Source of the DNA: Escherichia coli
GTDB taxonomy: Bacteria; Pseudomonadota; Gammaproteobacteria; Enterobacterales; Enterobacteriaceae
Assembly (NCBI RefSeq): GCF_003991155.1
Contig: NZ_CP031293.1
DNA: 64,000 nucleotides
Strand: one strand, 5' to 3'
The notes under the pieces are model-generated. The model was not told where the DNA came from. It ran no database searches and was given only the letters and a program-made list of their open reading frames with translations. The first letter of the stretch is position 1. Every line of letters begins with the position of its first letter. The position numbers were made by a program, and so were the translations under genes. Below are positions 2,840-64,000 of this stretch, piece by piece.

Positions 2840-2916
<77 letters not shown>

Positions 2917-3006: not shown

Positions 3007-3092
3007 GTAGGCCTGATAAGACGCGCCAGCGTCGCATCAGGCAAATGTACCGGCCCATTGTCGGATGCGGCGCGACCGCCTTATCCGATCTA
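3007..3092. repeat. Pair of REP (repetitive extragenic palindromic) elements
   Basis: GTAGGCCTGATAAGACGCGCCAGCGTCGCATCAGGC and GTCGGATGCGGCGCGACCGCCTTATCCGATCTAC match the REP consensus. Confidence 0.7.
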
Positions 3093-10645: not shown

Positions 10646-11002
10646 AAAGTCCTGTCCAGAAAGAAGTCGGCCTCGCAAAAATGAATAAACCCAGTTTCTC
10701 TTGCGCAACAGGTGGAGAAGTCGAATACGCAGTATGTAAAAAATGAGGCAACAGATTCACTGGGGAGGTCGCGAGGAGGCGCAATTCTACAAAATTGCGC
10801 ATTTCACTACCAGTCTGGAGTCAGCCCGGATATGAACTGCAACTATTGCAAATAAAGAAATTAAGCTGGAATGCATCACGCAATGAGGAAGATTGCCGGG
10901 TGCTGACGGTAAAAAGCAATCGTAGAATCAGCGGCAAGCCGGAAAGGTTCCGGTGAGGCGCAATGTTGCGGGGGCTTAATCCCTGGTGGCATTGGTTGCT
11001 GG

Positions 11003-11072
11003 AGAGAGAAAACCCCCGCACGTTGCAGGTATGCACCTGACAACATCACGGGGGCTAATCTTGAACCTAGAC
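11003..11072 (-). ncRNA. rdlD: Rdl antisense antitoxin RNA, copy 1
   Basis: Minus-strand sequence GTCTAGGTTCAAGATTAGCCCCCGTGATGTTGTCAGG...CGTGCGGGGGTTTTCTCT matches the recalled RdlD sequence and ends in a terminator hairpin; ends approximate. Confidence 0.6.
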
Positions 11073-11120
11073 CACTCAAGAATAGCCGCGAAACGTTGTC
11101 ATTACAACACAGGCGGCTAT

Positions 11121-11228
11121 ATGACGCTCGCAGAACTGGGCATGGCCTTCTGGCATGATTTAGCGGCTCCGGTCATTGCTGGCATTCTTGCCAGCATGAT
11201 CGTGAACTGGCTGAACAAGCGGAAGTAA
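11121..11228 (+). CDS. ldrD: Type I toxin Ldr (35 aa: MTLAELGMAFWHDLAAPVIAGILASMIVNWLNKRK), copy 1
   Basis: 35-codon ORF at the 3' end of the repeat; peptide matches the recalled Ldr family sequence. Confidence 0.85.
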   Translation: MTLAELGMAFWHDLAAPVIAGILASMIVNWLNKRK

Positions 11229-11278
11229 CGTGTCAGACGGGCGTCAGGCTGCGGTAATGGCAATTTGCGCCCGGACCA

Positions 11279-11310
11279 GGCCGCAGGGATAAAACTCTGC
11301 GGCCTTTTTC
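11279..11310 (+). terminator. Rho-independent terminator of ldr copy 1
   Basis: GGCCGCAG / CTGCGGCC stem followed by TTTTT. Confidence 0.7.
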
Positions 11311-11485
11311 GTAAGAAAAAGGCAACGGTTGCAAGCGGATAATATTCTGCGGAATGGACAGCACAGAGTGAAGAAGTGACGGATTCCGGAACAGAAAAAC
11401 AGTCGTAGAATCAGCGGCAAGCCGGAAAGGTTCCGGTGAGGCGCAATGTTGCGGGGGCTTTATCCCTGGTGGCATTGGTTGCTGG

Positions 11486-11555
11486 AGAGAGAAAACCCCC
11501 GCACGTTGCAGTTATGCACCTGACAACACCACGGGGGCTAATCTTGACTCTAGAC
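11486..11555 (-). ncRNA. Rdl antisense antitoxin RNA, copy 2
   Basis: Paralogous to copy 1 with a few substitutions; ends approximate. Confidence 0.6.
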
Positions 11556-11603
11556 CACTCAAGAATAGCCGCGAAACGTTGTCATTACAACTCAGGCGGC
11601 TAT

Positions 11604-11711
11604 ATGACGCTCGCAGAGCTGGGCATGGCCTTCTGGCATGATTTAGCGGCTCCGGTCATTGCTGGCATTCTTGCCAGCATGATCGTGAACTGGCTGAACA
11701 AGCGGAAGTAA
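11604..11711 (+). CDS. Type I toxin Ldr, copy 2 (identical peptide)
   Basis: 35-codon ORF identical in amino-acid sequence to copy 1, with one synonymous change. Confidence 0.85.
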   Translation: MTLAELGMAFWHDLAAPVIAGILASMIVNWLNKRK

Positions 11712-11761
11712 CGTGTCAGACGGGCGTCAGGCTGCCGTAATGGCAAGTTGCGCCCGGATCA

Positions 11762-11792
11762 GGCCGCAGGGGTGAAACTCTGCGGCCTTTTT
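11762..11792 (+). terminator. Rho-independent terminator of ldr copy 2
   Basis: Same hairpin plus T-run as copy 1. Confidence 0.7.
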
Positions 11793-11797
11793 CGTTC

Positions 11798-13477
11798 TTA
11801 TTGCGGGTAAGGCACCCAGTCGCCGCCGTTCAGGCGAACGTACGGTTTATCCTGGTATTGAATAACTACTGCATTTGAGTTCTCGGAGACCGGTGCTGTT
11901 TGTGGCAACCCACTGGTGAGTTTTTTCCAGTCAACATTGTCTTCGGAGAAAATCTTGCCATCAAGAACGCGAACCACCAGATCGGAGATAGCCAAGAAGC
12001 TGCTCGGTTGGTCGATGACAATCGGTGCCCCCTGATGTGGTGCCTTCATGCCGAAGAATTTCACCCCAACGGGGACGTCTGTGATAGACGGGCTAGGGAT
12101 ATCACGTAGGCCAGATACCTGCATTCTGTCGCCCTTCAGCGCGCCGCCGTGTTCCGGCACCACGACCACCATCACTTTACGACCCGATTTCTCCAGTTCA
12201 GTAAAGAAGGCGTCCAGTTCATCAAAGAATTTCTGCGCCCGCGCTTTGTAATCCGCTGTTTTGCTGACGCCCGGATAATGGTTGCCGTCATGCAGTGGAA
12301 GCGTGTTGTAGAACGTGGCACTACGGCTGTTTTTATCTTTTTCGGTAACGTCCAGCCAGCGGTTAAGCACGGCGGTATCGTCATAAACCGGCGAACCATC
12401 AAAGCCCAGCAAAACAACCGGCAGATTTGTTTGATCCATCAATTCGGTCTGCATGCCGCCATTTTCGCGAACTTCTTTCAAAAAACCGCCGAACTGGCCG
12501 TTATGTCCCATCATCAGGTGCTGGGTAAAGCCCAGTTTCGACAGGTTATCAAACAGATAGCAGTCGTTATTTGCCGGTTGATACAGATTAGTGTGCGAAG
12601 TCTGCCCGCAGCTGGCGCGCAGTAAACGGATCGCCGCCGGGCCACTGTAGGAGGTGGCGGAGTTAAAGTTCTTGAACTCAATATCGAAATGCGACCACAG
12701 CGGATGCGACATCAACCCGGCGGCTTCAATATCCGACCAGGAAAGCGAACAGATATTAATCACCAGTAGTTCAAATGGCTGAGCATCAGCGGGCAGCGAA
12801 GACGGGAAGATTGATTTACGTTTCGCCTCCGCGTTATAGAAATTATTCAGCCAGGCGTTAAGGTTCGCCGTTGTTGGCGGTGCAGTTTGTGCGGGCATAT
12901 CACCCACTACCGGTGCGCCACCCGTCGCCGCAACGGTTGCCGCTGCGTTACCGCCCGTCGTTGTTACAGTGGTCGTTGGTTGACCGGCTGGCCACAAGGA
13001 GAAACTTGGTCCCGCCAGGGTAAGTACGTTCAGCCATAGCAGAATGGCAACCACAAAAACGGTAATGCGAATCCATTGTGACAGGAATAACCAGGCCACT
13101 AATAAAACAAAAATGGCCCCAATCATCTGCCAGTTAATAAAGCGTGTGACAAGGTCGATTAAATAATCGGTACTGAACCCCGCCACCTGCGAACCCTGGC
13201 TCATTATGCTTTCCGGGCCAGGCAACCAGGTGTCATGCCAGAACAAAGCAAAGCCGATCGGCAGGGCAATCCAGTGGCGTAAGCGATGCAGGCTGTAGCG
13301 CGGAATGGGCATCAGCAGAAACGCGGCAAACACCAGATTGAGGAGCGGATGGAAGTTAAGATATCCCGCCCACAACAGGCCGAACTTAACCAGAAAATAG
13401 AAGTTCCAGCCGGAAAGGCCGCGCCAGTATTGCCAGAGGGAAGAAGGCATGGCGGTATTTTGCGTAAATTGAGTCAT
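11798..13477 (-). CDS. bcsG: Cellulose phosphoethanolamine transferase BcsG
   Basis: 559-aa ORF with N-terminal transmembrane segments and a sulfatase-like domain; last gene of bcsEFG. Confidence 0.95.
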
Positions 13478-47497: not shown

Positions 47498-47603
47498 AAA
47501 AAAAACCCGGCATAGGGGACCGGGAAGAGGATAGTCTGCCGTCTCCAGACTAATAAACCGTTATAACACTCCCTGTTGGCACGGGAAACTTTGTGCTCTC
47601 AGT
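47498..47603 (-). ncRNA. gadY: GadY small RNA
   Basis: Minus-strand sequence ACTGAGAGCACAAAGTTTCCCGTGCCAACAGGGAGTGTTATAACGG...CCTATGCCGGGTTTTTTTT matches the recalled GadY sequence and ends in a terminator. Confidence 0.8.
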
Positions 47604-47849
47604 AAGTTAAATATAACTTTTACTGGAAATAAGATCAGCCATTTTTTTATAAACATAAGCTATACGCTGTGCGAAAATATATTCGTGTTGCATTTACTTA
47701 TTGTCAATTAACTGTTATGCAAAACTACTTTGTGGATAAATTTTGGTCCTACCAAATCTGGCAGTTTTTGCGCTAAGAAACAGTCTGGCATCATTTCATT
47801 AGTATACTGAAATTGAAATAATCGCAGTAATGAAATATAAGGGATAGTC

Positions 47850-53236: not shown

Positions 53237-53574
53237 TTTAGTCCCTGAAAATTCTTGAGAAATAACGGTTCTTTAAATTGCGCGCGAGGAGAGATATGAG
53301 GGATTTACAGACCAGCGGCATAGTGGGGTTGTCAGCCAGTAAGATGGGATGCAAGCACAGTGATCGACATGGTGAGGTCAACGACAAAAAAAATGTTGCC
53401 GTTCTGCCAACAGTTTCTGCCAGCATTCGGGCAACGAAGGGTTCTACTGGTGGATACACATACCAGGGGAATAAAGTCGTTTTCGTCTCTCCTTCAATAA
53501 TCACCGGGGGTATTGAAATCAGCATCTGCATCCCTCGTCATGCCAGCCATCAATTTCAGTTGCTTATGTCCTTA

Positions 53575-63124: not shown

Positions 63125-63156
63125 AGCATTTTTTATTTTCCTCATGGAGAATCGCT
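63125..63156 (+). promoter_or_regulatory. Candidate FourU-type RNA thermometer around the chuA Shine-Dalgarno
   Basis: U-runs (TTTTTTATTTTCC) directly 5' of CATGGAGA (the SD) could pair with it. A FourU thermometer in the shuA/chuA leader is established knowledge; the fold was not computed. Confidence 0.35.
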
Positions 63157-64000
63157 ATGTCACGTCCGCAATTTACCTCGTTGCGTTTGAGTTTGTTGGC
63201 TTTGGCTGTTTCTGCCACCTTGCCAACATTTGCTTTTGCTACTGAAACCATGACCGTTACGGCAACCGGGAATGCACGTAGTTCCTTCGAAGCGCCTATG
63301 ATGGTCAGCGTTATCGACACTTCCGCTCCTGAAAATCAAACGGCTACTTCAGCCACCGATCTGCTGCGTCATGTTCCTGGAATTACTCTTGATGGTACCG
63401 GACGAACCAACGGTCAGGATGTAAATATGCGTGGCTATGATCATCGCGGCGTGCTGGTTCTTGTCGATGGTGTTCGCCAGGGAACGGATACCGGACACCT
63501 GAATGGCACTTTTCTCGATCCGGCGCTGATCAAGCGTGTTGAGATTGTTCGCGGACCTTCAGCATTACTGTATGGCAGTGGCGCGCTGGGTGGAGTGATC
63601 TCCTACGATACGGTCGATGCAAAAGATTTATTGCAGGAAGGACAACGCAGTGGTTTTCGTGTCTTTGGTACTGGCGGCACGGGGGACCATAGCCTGGGAT
63701 TAGGCGCGAGCGCGTTTGGGCGAACTGAAAATCTGGATGGTATTGTGGCCTGGTCCAGTCGCGATCGGGGTGATTTACGCCAGAGCAATGGTGAAACCGC
63801 GCCGAATGACGAGTCCATTAATAACATGCTGGCGAAAGGGACCTGGCAAATTGATTCAGCCCAGTCTCTGAGCGGTTTAGTGCGTTACTACAACAACGAC
63901 GCGCGTGAACCAAAAAATCCGCAGACTGTTGAGGCTTCTGATAGCAGCAACCCGATGGTTGATCGTTCAACAATTCAACGCGATGCGCAGCTTTCTTATA
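63157..64000 (+). CDS. chuA: TonB-dependent outer-membrane haem receptor ChuA (ShuA), 5' portion; continues beyond the window
   Basis: Open frame from the ATG at 63157 (MSRPQFTSLRLSLLALAVSATLPTFAFA, TonB box ETMTVTA) to the window edge without a stop; SD GGAG 7 nt upstream. Confidence 0.9.
   Translation, partial: MSRPQFTSLRLSLLALAVSATLPTFAFATETMTVTATGNARSSFEAPMMVSVIDTSAPENQTATSATDLLRHVPGITLDGTGRTNGQDVNMRGYDHRGVLVLVDGVRQGTDTGHLNGTFLDPALIKRVEIVRGPSALLYGSGALGGVISYDTVDAKDLLQEGQRSGFRVFGTGGTGDHSLGLGASAFGRTENLDGIVAWSSRDRGDLRQSNGETAPNDESINNMLAKGTWQIDSAQSLSGLVRYYNNDAREPKNPQTVEASDSSNPMVDRSTIQRDAQLSY

What the first reader, a model, noticed from the sequence alone, without database searches (positions are those of the whole stretch)
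11003..11555. The two Rdl antitoxin RNAs differ at several positions while the two Ldr toxin peptides are identical
In the rdl antisense region, copy 1 reads GCAGGTATGCACCTGACAACATCACGGGGGCTAATCTTGAACCTAGAC and copy 2 reads GCAGTTATGCACCTGACAACACCACGGGGGCTAATCTTGACTCTAGAC, about four substitutions in roughly 50 nt. The toxin ORFs differ only by one synonymous change. Type I antitoxin RNAs act in cis-encoded, sequence-specific fashion, so the two units may not cross-regulate. The pattern suggests purifying selection on the peptide with drift or diversification of the RNA partner.
Basis: seen in the sequence. Interest (0 to 1): 0.35.

Follow-up and report, generated by a model that had tools for sequence, protein, structure and literature searches.

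The report
Tandem ldrD/rdlD toxin-antitoxin copies, different recognition alleles
Two tandem copies of the known E. coli Ldr/Rdl toxin-antitoxin module encode the same toxin but different antitoxin RNAs, and two of the four RNA differences lie in a short tail-and-loop contact that comes in a few old, recurring versions, never repeated within one array in my sample.

Summary
Window 10912-11795 holds two 483-bp LDR-D units between yhjV and bcsG. The two 35-aa Ldr peptides are identical, with one synonymous difference. The two 66-nt Rdl RNAs (Rfam rdlD, 90.4 and 78.7 bits) differ at nt 7, 8, 27 and 44.

For this pair alone the contrast is not significant (4/66 against 2.0 expected, P=0.13).

In 99 LDR-D units from 43 Escherichia loci the signal is real but local. 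Diversity peaks at Rdl nt 1-9 and the 13-nt apical loop of a covariation-supported hairpin in the ldr leader. There pi is 0.22, against piS 0.08 and piN/piS 0.10 in the ORF. Only 8 loop alleles occur. No two units in one array share an allele (0/90 pairs, against 16.5% between arrays). Five alleles recur exactly in Klebsiella, Citrobacter, Kluyvera, Pseudocitrobacter or Salmonella, although the unit flanks are only about 75% identical. So this is maintained diversity, not drift.

The window carries alleles A and E. E is the K-12 rdlD type. Nt 27 is a common polymorphism. Nt 44 is private to 34 of 5,426 genomes and weakens the hairpin.

Insulation is unproven. Non-cognate duplexes remain very stable, and A/E is among the least orthogonal pairs. 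The system is known; the allele pattern is a modest new lead.

The parts
10912..11312 (+). LDR-D-type repeat unit 1 (yhjV-proximal): ldr mRNA region with embedded antisense rdl
   Evidence: Direct repeat D1, 483-nt spacing, 97% identity. Alignment A1. 393-nt core 10920-11312 used for population alignments.
11395..11795 (+). LDR-D-type repeat unit 2 (bcsG-proximal). Its Rdl is the K-12 RdlD sequence plus one change.
   Evidence: Comparison with K-12 rdlD (b4454) from NC_000913.3.
11121..11228 (+). ldr toxin ORF, copy 1 (35 aa)
   Evidence: ORF list and translation. RefSeq annotates the identical protein WP_001295224.1 as an Ldr family toxin. Pfam PF13940 Ldr_toxin is on record for this exact peptide.
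11604..11711 (+). ldr toxin ORF, copy 2. Identical peptide; one synonymous difference (11618 G vs 11135 A).
11007..11072 (-). rdl antitoxin RNA, copy 1 (66 nt): 5' single-stranded tail nt 1-16, then a long stem-loop that doubles as the terminator
   Evidence: Rfam RF01813, 90.4 bits, full length. MFE -31.7 kcal/mol, nt 1-10 P(unpaired) 0.93. Terminator-like hairpin plus U run on the - strand.
11490..11555 (-). rdl antitoxin RNA, copy 2. It differs from copy 1 at nt 7, 8, 27 and 44. The nt 44 C>A change breaks a G-C pair in the apical stem.
   Evidence: Rfam 78.7 bits with a flagged non-canonical pair. MFE -26.3 kcal/mol, against -29.5 for K-12 RdlD. The allele with T at 11512 is exact in only 34 records.
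11054..11086 (+). Hairpin in the ldr1 mRNA leader. Core stem 11059-63/11077-81, predicted 13-nt apical loop 11064-11076 (allele A, AACCTAGACCACT). Loop nt 11064-11072 are complementary to Rdl nt 1-9.
   Evidence: RNAalifold on E. coli units. P(unpaired) is 0.85 for the loop and 0.01 for the stem in full-length mRNA. Covariation on 44 unique hairpins from 8 genera.
11537..11569 (+). The same hairpin in the ldr2 leader. Loop 11547-11559 (allele E, ACTCTAGACCACT, the K-12 type).
   Evidence: The exact 65-nt context is found in 2,072 of 5,426 genomes. The copy-1 context is found in 445.
11278..11310 (+). ldr1 intrinsic terminator
   Evidence: Terminator scan: 11-bp stem, 8 G-C pairs, T run.
11761..11793 (+). 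ldr2 intrinsic terminator

Best explanation
The region is a two-unit tandem array of the known chromosomal type I toxin-antitoxin module ldrD/rdlD (the LDR-D locus between yhjV and bcsG). Each unit makes a long-leader mRNA for a 35-aa membrane toxin and, from the opposite strand of that leader, a 66-nt Rdl RNA. Rdl base-pairs with the leader and blocks toxin synthesis; this is established for K-12 ldrD/rdlD in the literature. The step I infer is how the first contact forms. The single-stranded 5' tail of Rdl (nt 1-9) docks onto the 13-nt apical loop of a conserved hairpin in the ldr leader, and pairing then spreads. This tail-loop contact is the one hypervariable spot of the unit. It exists as a small set of discrete alleles that are conserved as blocks across Enterobacteriaceae, while the rest of the unit is homogenised within each genome. 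Co-resident units never carried the same allele in my Escherichia LDR-D sample. The window carries alleles A and E, which differ at Rdl nt 7-8. These two substitutions are therefore a difference in a probable specificity determinant and should reduce, though probably not abolish, cross-recognition. The third substitution (nt 27) is a common polymorphism in an internal loop. The fourth (nt 44) is a recent lineage-private change that weakens the Rdl2 apical stem. The identical peptides reflect purifying selection on the toxin.
For: Identity of the module: Rfam rdlD hits, Pfam Ldr_toxin and RefSeq Ldr annotation, synteny with K-12 ldrD/rdlD, and copy-2 Rdl equal to K-12 RdlD plus C44A. [quoted passage not shown] An RNase III-dependent dsRNA forms at the ldrD/rdlD overlap (PMC7373196). 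Localised diversity: a 16-nt sliding pi peaks at 11056-11079 (0.22), against piS 0.080, piN 0.008 and a next peak of 0.105. The Rdl tail has pi 0.18 and the stem-loop 0.036. The LDR-ABC group shows the same pattern (tail 0.154, ORF 0.028). Structure: the consensus fold puts the variable block in a hairpin loop, the loop is 0.79-0.85 unpaired, and Rdl nt 1-10 are 0.93 unpaired. In the stem, 95.8% of cells are paired, against 28-55% for slid controls, with compensatory UA/CG, GC/AU and UA/CG changes; 11 cells change on both sides, against 2.5+-1.3 in shuffles. The right arm lies upstream of Rdl +1, so the hairpin belongs to the mRNA only. Alleles: 8 loop alleles in 99 units. Identical pairs number 0/90 within arrays, against 16.5% between arrays. 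With one genome per distinct architecture the count is 0/54 against 7.6 expected (P about 2e-4), and allele order varies among arrays. Sharing across genera: 14 of 29 non-Escherichia hairpins carry an exact E. coli 9-mer (5 alleles), against 3.8+-1.6 under column shuffling. Flanks cluster by genus: 96-97% within E. coli, 89-98% within Klebsiella, 74-77% between them. Energetics: the tail-loop helix is -12.7/-13.0 cognate and -8.3/-8.6 non-cognate. Over all 8 alleles the cognate mean is -12.6 and the non-cognate mean -5.3. Precedent: the Sib target-recognition domains lie in the variable regions of that family and set cognate-only repression (PMC2943612). A 3-nt V1 block in the 5' single-stranded end of OrzO sets specificity (PMC3919570).
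Against: No experiment here shows that the tail-loop contact nucleates binding or that alleles discriminate. Non-cognate full duplexes are still predicted at -121 to -124 kcal/mol, and net binding to the folded leader at -58 to -66. A/E is one of the least orthogonal allele pairs; 6-7 of 9 tail-loop pairs survive. The variable block extends 4 nt beyond the annotated Rdl 5' end (11073, 11075, 11076 vary), which Rdl pairing does not explain. Identical tails do co-reside elsewhere: K-12 rdlB/rdlC, E. whittamii L065 and Kluyvera cryocrescens L069. The genomes sampled are phylogenetically related, so the permutation P values are optimistic. The leader transcription start was assumed, and the promoter scan found nothing at its threshold. 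In the 200-nt leader-only fold the loop is only 0.46-0.55 unpaired.
Confidence: 0.6

Rival explanations
1. Neutral variation with no functional consequence. The four differences sit where a structured antisense RNA tolerates change (unpaired tail, internal loop, near the apical loop). Both Rdl RNAs repress both ldr mRNAs, and the identical peptides only reflect a short, constrained ORF.
For: The pair-level enrichment is not significant, and the 3' UTR is equally divergent. All recurrent variable Rdl positions are unpaired in the Rfam consensus. Non-cognate duplexes remain very stable. Arrays with identical tails exist.
Against: Loop diversity is about 2.7 times the synonymous diversity, and about 10 times the divergence of the rest of the unit. 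The same multi-site alleles recur across genera with about 75% flank identity, far more often than column shuffling predicts. There were 0/90 identical pairs within arrays although allele order is shuffled.
Confidence: 0.22
2. Copy 2's antitoxin is decaying. The private C44A change destabilises the Rdl2 hairpin, so unit 2 increasingly depends on cross-protection by Rdl1 or is on its way to loss.
For: MFE is -26.3 kcal/mol, against -29.5 for K-12 RdlD and -31.7 for Rdl1. The Rfam score drops from 90.4 to 78.7 bits with a flagged broken pair. The allele is confined to 34 genomes.
Against: The score is still 28 bits above the gathering threshold. The long outer stem and U tract, which form the terminator, are intact. 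The toxin ORF, leader and cognate complementarity are intact. The change persists in a clade of 34 complete genomes from several hosts and countries.
Confidence: 0.08
3. The hypervariable loop serves the sense strand or the rdl promoter rather than Rdl recognition. Possible roles are a ribosome standby or nuclease entry site in the ldr leader, or the discriminator and start-site region of the rdl promoter, whose variants tune expression of each copy.
For: The variable block is centred on the Rdl start site and extends 4 nt upstream of it. The hairpin's right arm overlaps the rdl -10-like TATTCT, as read directly from the sequence. The hairpin exists only in the mRNA.
Against: Most variable positions (11064-11070) are inside Rdl. 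Expression tuning does not predict discrete alleles conserved as blocks across genera, nor their non-repetition within arrays. Compensatory changes link Rdl nt 10-14 to the region upstream of +1, which a promoter role does not explain.
Confidence: 0.1

Closest known systems
ldrD/rdlD (LDR-D) of E. coli K-12 (Kawano et al. 2002; reviewed in PMC4147584, PMC8167048)
   Same: Same locus (yhjV-bcsG), same architecture, and a 35-aa toxin differing at one residue (L3 vs F3). The Rdl of unit 2 differs from K-12 RdlD at one nucleotide.
   Different: K-12 has one unit and the window has two. The median in 5,396 complete E. coli genomes is two and the maximum five. Unit 1 carries a different tail-loop allele (A), and its rdl is not annotated in RefSeq.
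Sib/Ibs type I family: target-recognition domains TRD1/TRD2 (Han et al. 2010, PMC2943612)
   Same: Highly similar cis-encoded paralogues in one genome. The recognition elements are single-stranded and coincide with the most variable parts of the family. In Sib/Ibs that variability gives cognate-only repression.
   Different: Sib overlaps the whole ibs ORF and has two recognition domains. Rdl overlaps only the leader and shows one variable tail. Discrimination has been shown experimentally for Sib and only inferred here.
zorO-orzO / zorP-orzP (Wen et al. 2014, PMC3919570)
   Same: A tandemly duplicated type I locus with near-identical toxins. A 3-nt block (V1) in the 5' single-stranded end of the sRNA decides which mRNA is repressed. 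A 5(2)11 pairing pattern failed to repress, which resembles the 6(2)... pattern of Rdl1 on ldr2.
   Different: Orz is trans-encoded with only 18 nt of complementarity. Rdl retains 62 of 66 complementary nt with the non-cognate leader, so mismatches may matter less.
hok/sok (and the mok leader ORF)
   Same: The antisense RNA targets the leader rather than the toxin RBS. A single-stranded 5' tail of the antisense meeting a structured target is the textbook recognition mode (my own knowledge). Reviews state that Ldr/Rdl is thought to work like hok/sok through a leader ORF, ldrX (PMC4147584, PMC8594479).
   Different: The toxins are unrelated (Ldr belongs to the Fst/Ldr superfamily, PMC2887945). 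The ldrX coupling is a hypothesis and could not be located unambiguously here.

Membership tests
Ldr/Rdl type I toxin-antitoxin (LDR repeats) | Short (about 35 aa) hydrophobic Ldr toxin with the conserved Trp and a charged C-terminus | tested here: met
   Both ORFs encode MTLAELGMAFWHDLAAPVIAGILASMIVNWLNKRK. Pfam PF13940 Ldr_toxin is on record for this exact peptide, and RefSeq names it an Ldr family toxin.
Ldr/Rdl type I toxin-antitoxin (LDR repeats) | Antisense sRNA matching the rdlD covariance model | tested here: met
   RF01813, full length, 90.4 and 78.7 bits against a gathering score of 50.
Ldr/Rdl type I toxin-antitoxin (LDR repeats) | The sRNA is cis-encoded opposite the 5' UTR and does not overlap the toxin RBS or ORF | tested here: met
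   Rdl lies at 11007-11072 and the ORF starts at 11121, a 48-nt gap. Unit 2 is the same.
Ldr/Rdl type I toxin-antitoxin (LDR repeats) | Roughly 500-bp long direct repeat organisation at the K-12 LDR-D position | tested here: met
   483-bp tandem units between yhjV and bcsG.
Ldr/Rdl type I toxin-antitoxin (LDR repeats) | The toxin kills on overexpression and the cognate Rdl rescues | not testable with these tools
   Known for K-12 LdrD/RdlD from the literature (PMC4147584). Not tested for these two alleles.
Ldr/Rdl type I toxin-antitoxin (LDR repeats) | Both RNAs are transcribed from their own promoters | tested here: inconclusive
   The consensus promoter scan found no site at its threshold. 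TAGAAT (10924-10929) and, on the - strand, TATTCT (11086-11081) can be read in the sequence. The spacer upstream of rdl differs from K-12 at no more than one of the variable positions.
Paralogue-discriminating antisense families (Sib/Ibs TRD type, Orz V1 type) | Sequence variation among co-resident paralogues concentrated in single-stranded recognition elements | tested here: met
   pi is 0.18-0.22 in the Rdl tail and leader loop, against 0.03 elsewhere. The tail is 0.93 and the loop 0.79-0.85 unpaired. There were 0/90 identical pairs within arrays.
Paralogue-discriminating antisense families (Sib/Ibs TRD type, Orz V1 type) | Cognate-only repression, transferable by swapping the variable element | not testable with these tools
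   Only predicted energies are available: tail-loop -12.7/-13.0 cognate against -8.3/-8.6 non-cognate.
hok/sok-like leader-ORF coupling (mok/ldrX) | A leader ORF whose start is covered by the antisense RNA and which overlaps the toxin translation initiation region | tested here: inconclusive
   The in-frame ATG at 11031 is covered by Rdl but is absent in 12 of 47 LDR-D units and is at another position in LDR-ABC. A conserved 25-codon ORF (10963-11040) has a Shine-Dalgarno sequence but ends 80 nt before the ldr ATG.

The most novel reading that the evidence does not exclude
The Rdl 5' tail and the apical loop of a conserved ldr-leader hairpin form a specificity code. A small repertoire of ancient alleles (at least 8 in Escherichia LDR-D, 5 of them shared exactly with other genera) is kept distinct by selection while gene conversion homogenises the rest of each unit. 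Tandem Ldr/Rdl modules in one genome are therefore mutually orthogonal. One possible reason is that a unit whose stable toxin mRNA is not covered by a neighbour's Rdl cannot be deleted without cost.
Probability: 0.35. Interest if true: 0.6.

Novelty: new member of a known kind. Interest (0 to 1): 0.4.

Why it matters
The locus itself is ordinary: a known toxin-antitoxin module in its usual place. Why enterobacterial chromosomes keep several nearly identical type I toxin-antitoxin copies side by side is an open question. Whether the copies are independent has been tested only for Sib/Ibs and Zor/Orz. The data here nominate a specific 9-13-nt element as the Ldr/Rdl discrimination determinant. 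They also give a ready set of natural alleles, including close (A/E) and distant (A/D) pairs, for swap experiments. Finally, they show a signature of concerted evolution that spares one short element. If confirmed, this would extend the 'variable recognition domain' principle to a third family and offer natural orthogonal antisense pairs for synthetic biology.

Tried and rejected
1. Pair-level statistics (binomial, Fisher) were run to ask whether rdl is enriched for substitutions. The result was not significant, so the case rests on population data.

2. The consensus promoter scan of 10750-11850 found no site. The transcription starts of ldr and rdl are therefore taken from the K-12 annotation and the Rfam model ends, or assumed (ldr +1 near 10936).

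3. I looked for ldrX. The in-frame ATG at 11031 was rejected as a conserved leader-ORF start because it is lost in 12 of 47 units and sits elsewhere in LDR-ABC. The conserved 25-codon ORF does not overlap the ldr initiation region as reviews describe ldrX. This is left unresolved.

4. Kawano 2002 (Mol Microbiol and DNA Res), Kawano 2012 and Fozo 2008 are not in the held library. I cannot exclude that the variable tail or the leader hairpin was already described there. Searches for rdlA/B/C and for Ldr/Rdl cross-talk found no paper on Rdl specificity.

5. A YUNR U-turn motif in the loop, read by eye, is present in alleles A, C, E and F (CUAG or CUGA) but not within the loops of B and D. It is not used as evidence.

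6. A single ancestral ordered array followed by deletions was considered as the explanation for within-array distinctness. It was rejected as sufficient because allele order differs among arrays (for example A-D-C-B, E-F-B-A, B-D-C-E, F-A-B).

7. Recent horizontal transfer was considered as the explanation for alleles shared across genera. It was rejected because flanks cluster by genus and the hairpin stems carry genus-specific compensatory changes.

Full report
**What is at the coordinates**

The window is E. coli chromosome. Positions 10700-11900 match strain 2016C-3878 at 100%. In that strain RefSeq annotates dppF, yhjV, two 'type I toxin-antitoxin system toxin Ldr family' genes and bcsG. 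In K-12 the same intergenic position holds the single ldrD/rdlD module.

The repeat finder reports a direct repeat with 483-nt spacing and 97% identity. Aligning the two units shows homology from about 10912 to 11312 and from 11395 to 11795.

Rfam's rdlD model (RF01813) matches full length on the minus strand at 11007-11072 (90.4 bits) and at 11490-11555 (78.7 bits). The gathering score is 50. The ldr ORFs lie at 11121-11228 and 11604-11711. Pfam Ldr_toxin is on record for the exact peptide. Each unit ends in a strong terminator-like hairpin, and each rdl has its own hairpin plus U tract.

**Check of the observation**

The quoted strings are exact.

The two Rdl RNAs differ at four positions:
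- nt 7-8, GU in copy 1 and AG in copy 2 (+ strand 11066-11065)
- nt 27, A/G (11046)
- nt 44, C/A (11029)

The ORFs differ only at 11135 (GAA/GAG), and the peptides are identical.

Over the 393 aligned nt there are 12 differences: leader 1/87, rdl 4/66, spacer 1/48, ORF 1/108, 3' UTR 5/84. Four in rdl against 2.0 expected gives P=0.13. Fisher's test of rdl against ORF gives P=0.069.

So the description is right, but this pair alone does not exceed chance, and the 3' UTR is just as divergent.

**A conceptual point**

Rdl is transcribed from the opposite strand of its own target. Each substitution therefore changes both partners. Both cognate duplexes remain perfect (-139.0 and -138.9 kcal/mol). 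The RNA cannot drift away from its own mRNA. It can only drift away from the other copy's mRNA.

**Where the four changes come from**

Copy 2's Rdl is K-12 RdlD plus C44A.

In 29 LDR-D units from 14 strains, the T at 11029/11512 occurs only in the window. An exact 61-nt context is found in 34 of 5,426 complete genomes, the same number that match the whole locus at 99% or better. The change breaks a G-C pair in the apical stem. MFE is -26.3 kcal/mol, against -29.5 for K-12 RdlD.

The other three positions are common polymorphisms. The copy-1 tail context is exact in 445 genomes and the copy-2 (K-12-type) context in 2,072.

LDR-D copy number is 1-5 per genome with a median of 2. The two-unit state is therefore typical, and K-12's single unit is not.

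**Population pattern**

In the 29-unit alignment, nucleotide diversity by region is:

| Region | pi |
|---|---|
| Leader | 0.026 |
| ORF | 0.026 |
| Rdl stem-loop | 0.036 |
| 3' UTR | 0.046 |
| Rdl nt 1-16 | 0.18 |

A 16-nt sliding window peaks sharply at 11056-11079 (0.22). The next peak is 0.105, in the terminator loop. In the ORF, piS is 0.080 and piN 0.008, a ratio of 0.10.

The peptide is thus under purifying selection. One short block is about 2.7 times more diverse than synonymous sites.

The LDR-ABC group (23 units) shows the same picture: tail 0.154, ORF 0.028.

**What the variable block is**

RNAalifold on the sense strand puts it in the apical loop of a hairpin. This holds for both the 200-nt leader and the full mRNA. 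The stem is 11059-63/11077-81, extendable to 11054/11086 with one A·A mismatch. The loop is 11064-11076.

In the full-length ensemble the loop is 0.79-0.85 unpaired and the stem 0.01-0.10 unpaired. Rdl nt 1-10 are 0.93 unpaired.

A scan of one genome per species found rdl cores in Citrobacter, Klebsiella, Kluyvera, Pseudocitrobacter, Atlantibacter, Pluralibacter and Salmonella arizonae/diarizonae. Those checked score 69.6-90 bits on the Rfam model.

On 44 unique hairpins:
- 95.8% of cells form standard pairs, against 28-55% when the partner is slid.
- Compensatory changes occur: UA to CG in 7 sequences, GC to AU in one, UA to CG in 3.
- Eleven cells change on both sides, against 2.5+-1.3 in shuffles (0 of 500 reached the observed value).

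The seven Klebsiella sequences may represent one event, so the number of independent events is small. Other genera use further registers with the same logic, such as CTTTG/CAAAG and AACTTG/CAAGTT.

The right arm lies upstream of Rdl +1. The hairpin is therefore a feature of the ldr mRNA, and its loop presents the complement of Rdl nt 1-9.

**Alleles**

In 99 LDR-D units from 43 Escherichia loci there are only eight loop sequences:

| Allele | Loop sequence | Units |
|---|---|---|
| A | AACCTAGACCACT | 26 |
| B | AACCCAAACAACT | 16 |
| C | AACCTGAACAACT | 15 |
| D | CATCCAAACAATA | 14 |
| E | ACTCTAGACCACT | 13 |
| F | CATCTAGACCATT | 12 |
| G | AACCTACACAACT | 2 |
| H | AACCTTAACAACT | 1 |

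There are 23 array architectures with variable order. No array contains an allele twice. That is 0 of 90 within-array pairs, against 16.5% of between-array pairs. With one genome per architecture the count is 0 of 54 against 7.6 expected, permutation P about 2e-4. The genomes are related, so these P values are optimistic.

The window's array is A-E.

**Not drift**

With the hairpin removed, unit flanks cluster by genus:
- 96-97% within E. coli
- 89-98% within Klebsiella, and 94-98% within a single Klebsiella genome
- 74-77% between E. coli and Klebsiella

Yet 14 of 29 non-Escherichia hairpins carry a 9-mer identical to an E. coli LDR-D allele. Five alleles are shared (A, B, C, E, F), against 3.8+-1.6 expected when columns are shuffled (none of 20,000 shuffles reached 14).

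One reading is that old alleles escape the gene conversion that homogenises the flanks. The other is that the same few sequences are repeatedly re-evolved. Both require selection on the loop/tail sequence.

**Consequences for cross-regulation in the window**

| Interaction | Cognate (kcal/mol) | Non-cognate (kcal/mol) |
|---|---|---|
| Full duplex | -139 | -121 to -124 |
| Binding to the folded 215-nt leader | -75/-81 | -58/-66 |
| Tail-loop helix | -12.7/-13.0 | -8.3/-8.6 |

In the non-cognate tail-loop helix, 6-7 of 9 pairs survive. Across the eight alleles the cognate mean is -12.6 and the non-cognate mean -5.3. A/E is among the least orthogonal pairs.

Thermodynamics therefore allows cross-binding. 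Any insulation would be kinetic, and for A/E probably partial.

Precedents show that small differences in single-stranded elements can decide specificity. The Sib recognition domains lie in the family's variable regions (PMC2943612). A 3-nt V1 block in OrzO decides zorO repression, and a 5(2)11 pairing pattern fails (PMC3919570). Orz, however, has only 18 nt of complementarity in total.

**Weak points**

- The variable block extends four nt beyond the annotated Rdl 5' end.
- Identical tails co-reside in K-12 rdlB/rdlC, in E. whittamii and in Kluyvera cryocrescens.
- The ldr transcription start was assumed, and the promoter scan was negative.
- The primary Ldr/Rdl papers are not in the held library, so prior description cannot be excluded.

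**Verdict**

The finding is a correct description of a known system. Its interpretation is partly right, and it becomes meaningful only in population context. Two of the four substitutions distinguish two members of a small, old, non-repeating set of tail-loop alleles, which probably act as the specificity determinant of Ldr/Rdl modules. The module is known. The allele pattern is a moderate, testable lead.

Noticed in passing
window 10963-11040 and 11446-11523 (+): A 25-codon ORF (MLRGL[N/Y]PWWHWLLERENPRTLQ[V/L]CT) sits in the ldr leader with a GGTGAGG Shine-Dalgarno-like sequence 5 nt upstream. Its 3' end overlaps the 3' half of Rdl. Its first 21 residues recur, with single substitutions, in all 47 LDR-D units and in 21 of 23 LDR-ABC units. 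It does not overlap the ldr start as reviews describe ldrX, and the conservation may simply reflect RNA-structure constraint.
   Followed up: partly
window 10986-11228 and 11436-11711 (+): The ldr reading frame stays open 141-195 nt upstream of the ldr ATG in 35 of 47 LDR-D units. There is an in-frame ATG 90 nt upstream (11031), inside the Rdl-covered region. That ATG is absent in 12 of 47 units.
   Followed up: partly
window 10957-10964 with about 11262-11270 (+): The consensus fold of the full-length ldr mRNA predicts long-range pairing between the 5' leader (GGCGCAAU, just before the leader ORF start) and the 3' UTR. This is reminiscent of the fold-back inhibition element of hok mRNA.
   Followed up: no
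window 11798-13477 (-) vs L001 4099-7057: The best-matching genome (2016C-3878) has an IS621 transposase inserted in bcsG. The window's bcsG is an intact 559-codon ORF, so the window comes from a close relative rather than that strain.
   Followed up: no
L076, L055, L091, L067 (Klebsiella, Atlantibacter): Tandem arrays of 2-3 Ldr/Rdl units with distinct tails also occur outside Escherichia. All copies in a Klebsiella genome share the genus-specific CTCG/CGAG stem, a signature of concerted evolution.
   Followed up: partly
L015 (plasmid p23AR0151A, 195 kb): A chaA-ldr-kdsA-sirB1 chromosomal segment, including an LDR-ABC-type unit, is carried on a large plasmid.
   Followed up: no
L077 (503-bp contig labelled Bacillus sp.): An E. 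coli-type rdl/ldr leader sequence (allele B) sits on a tiny, low-coverage contig of a Bacillus assembly. This is most likely contamination.
   Followed up: no
window 47493-47606(-), 53386-53457(-), 63128-63159(+), 3010-3090(-), 2840-2913(+): Other Rfam hits in the window are GadY, ES205, the shuA/chuA 5' UTR thermoregulator (so the strain carries the chu haem-uptake locus that, to my knowledge, K-12 lacks), naRNA4 and a tRNA.
   Followed up: no
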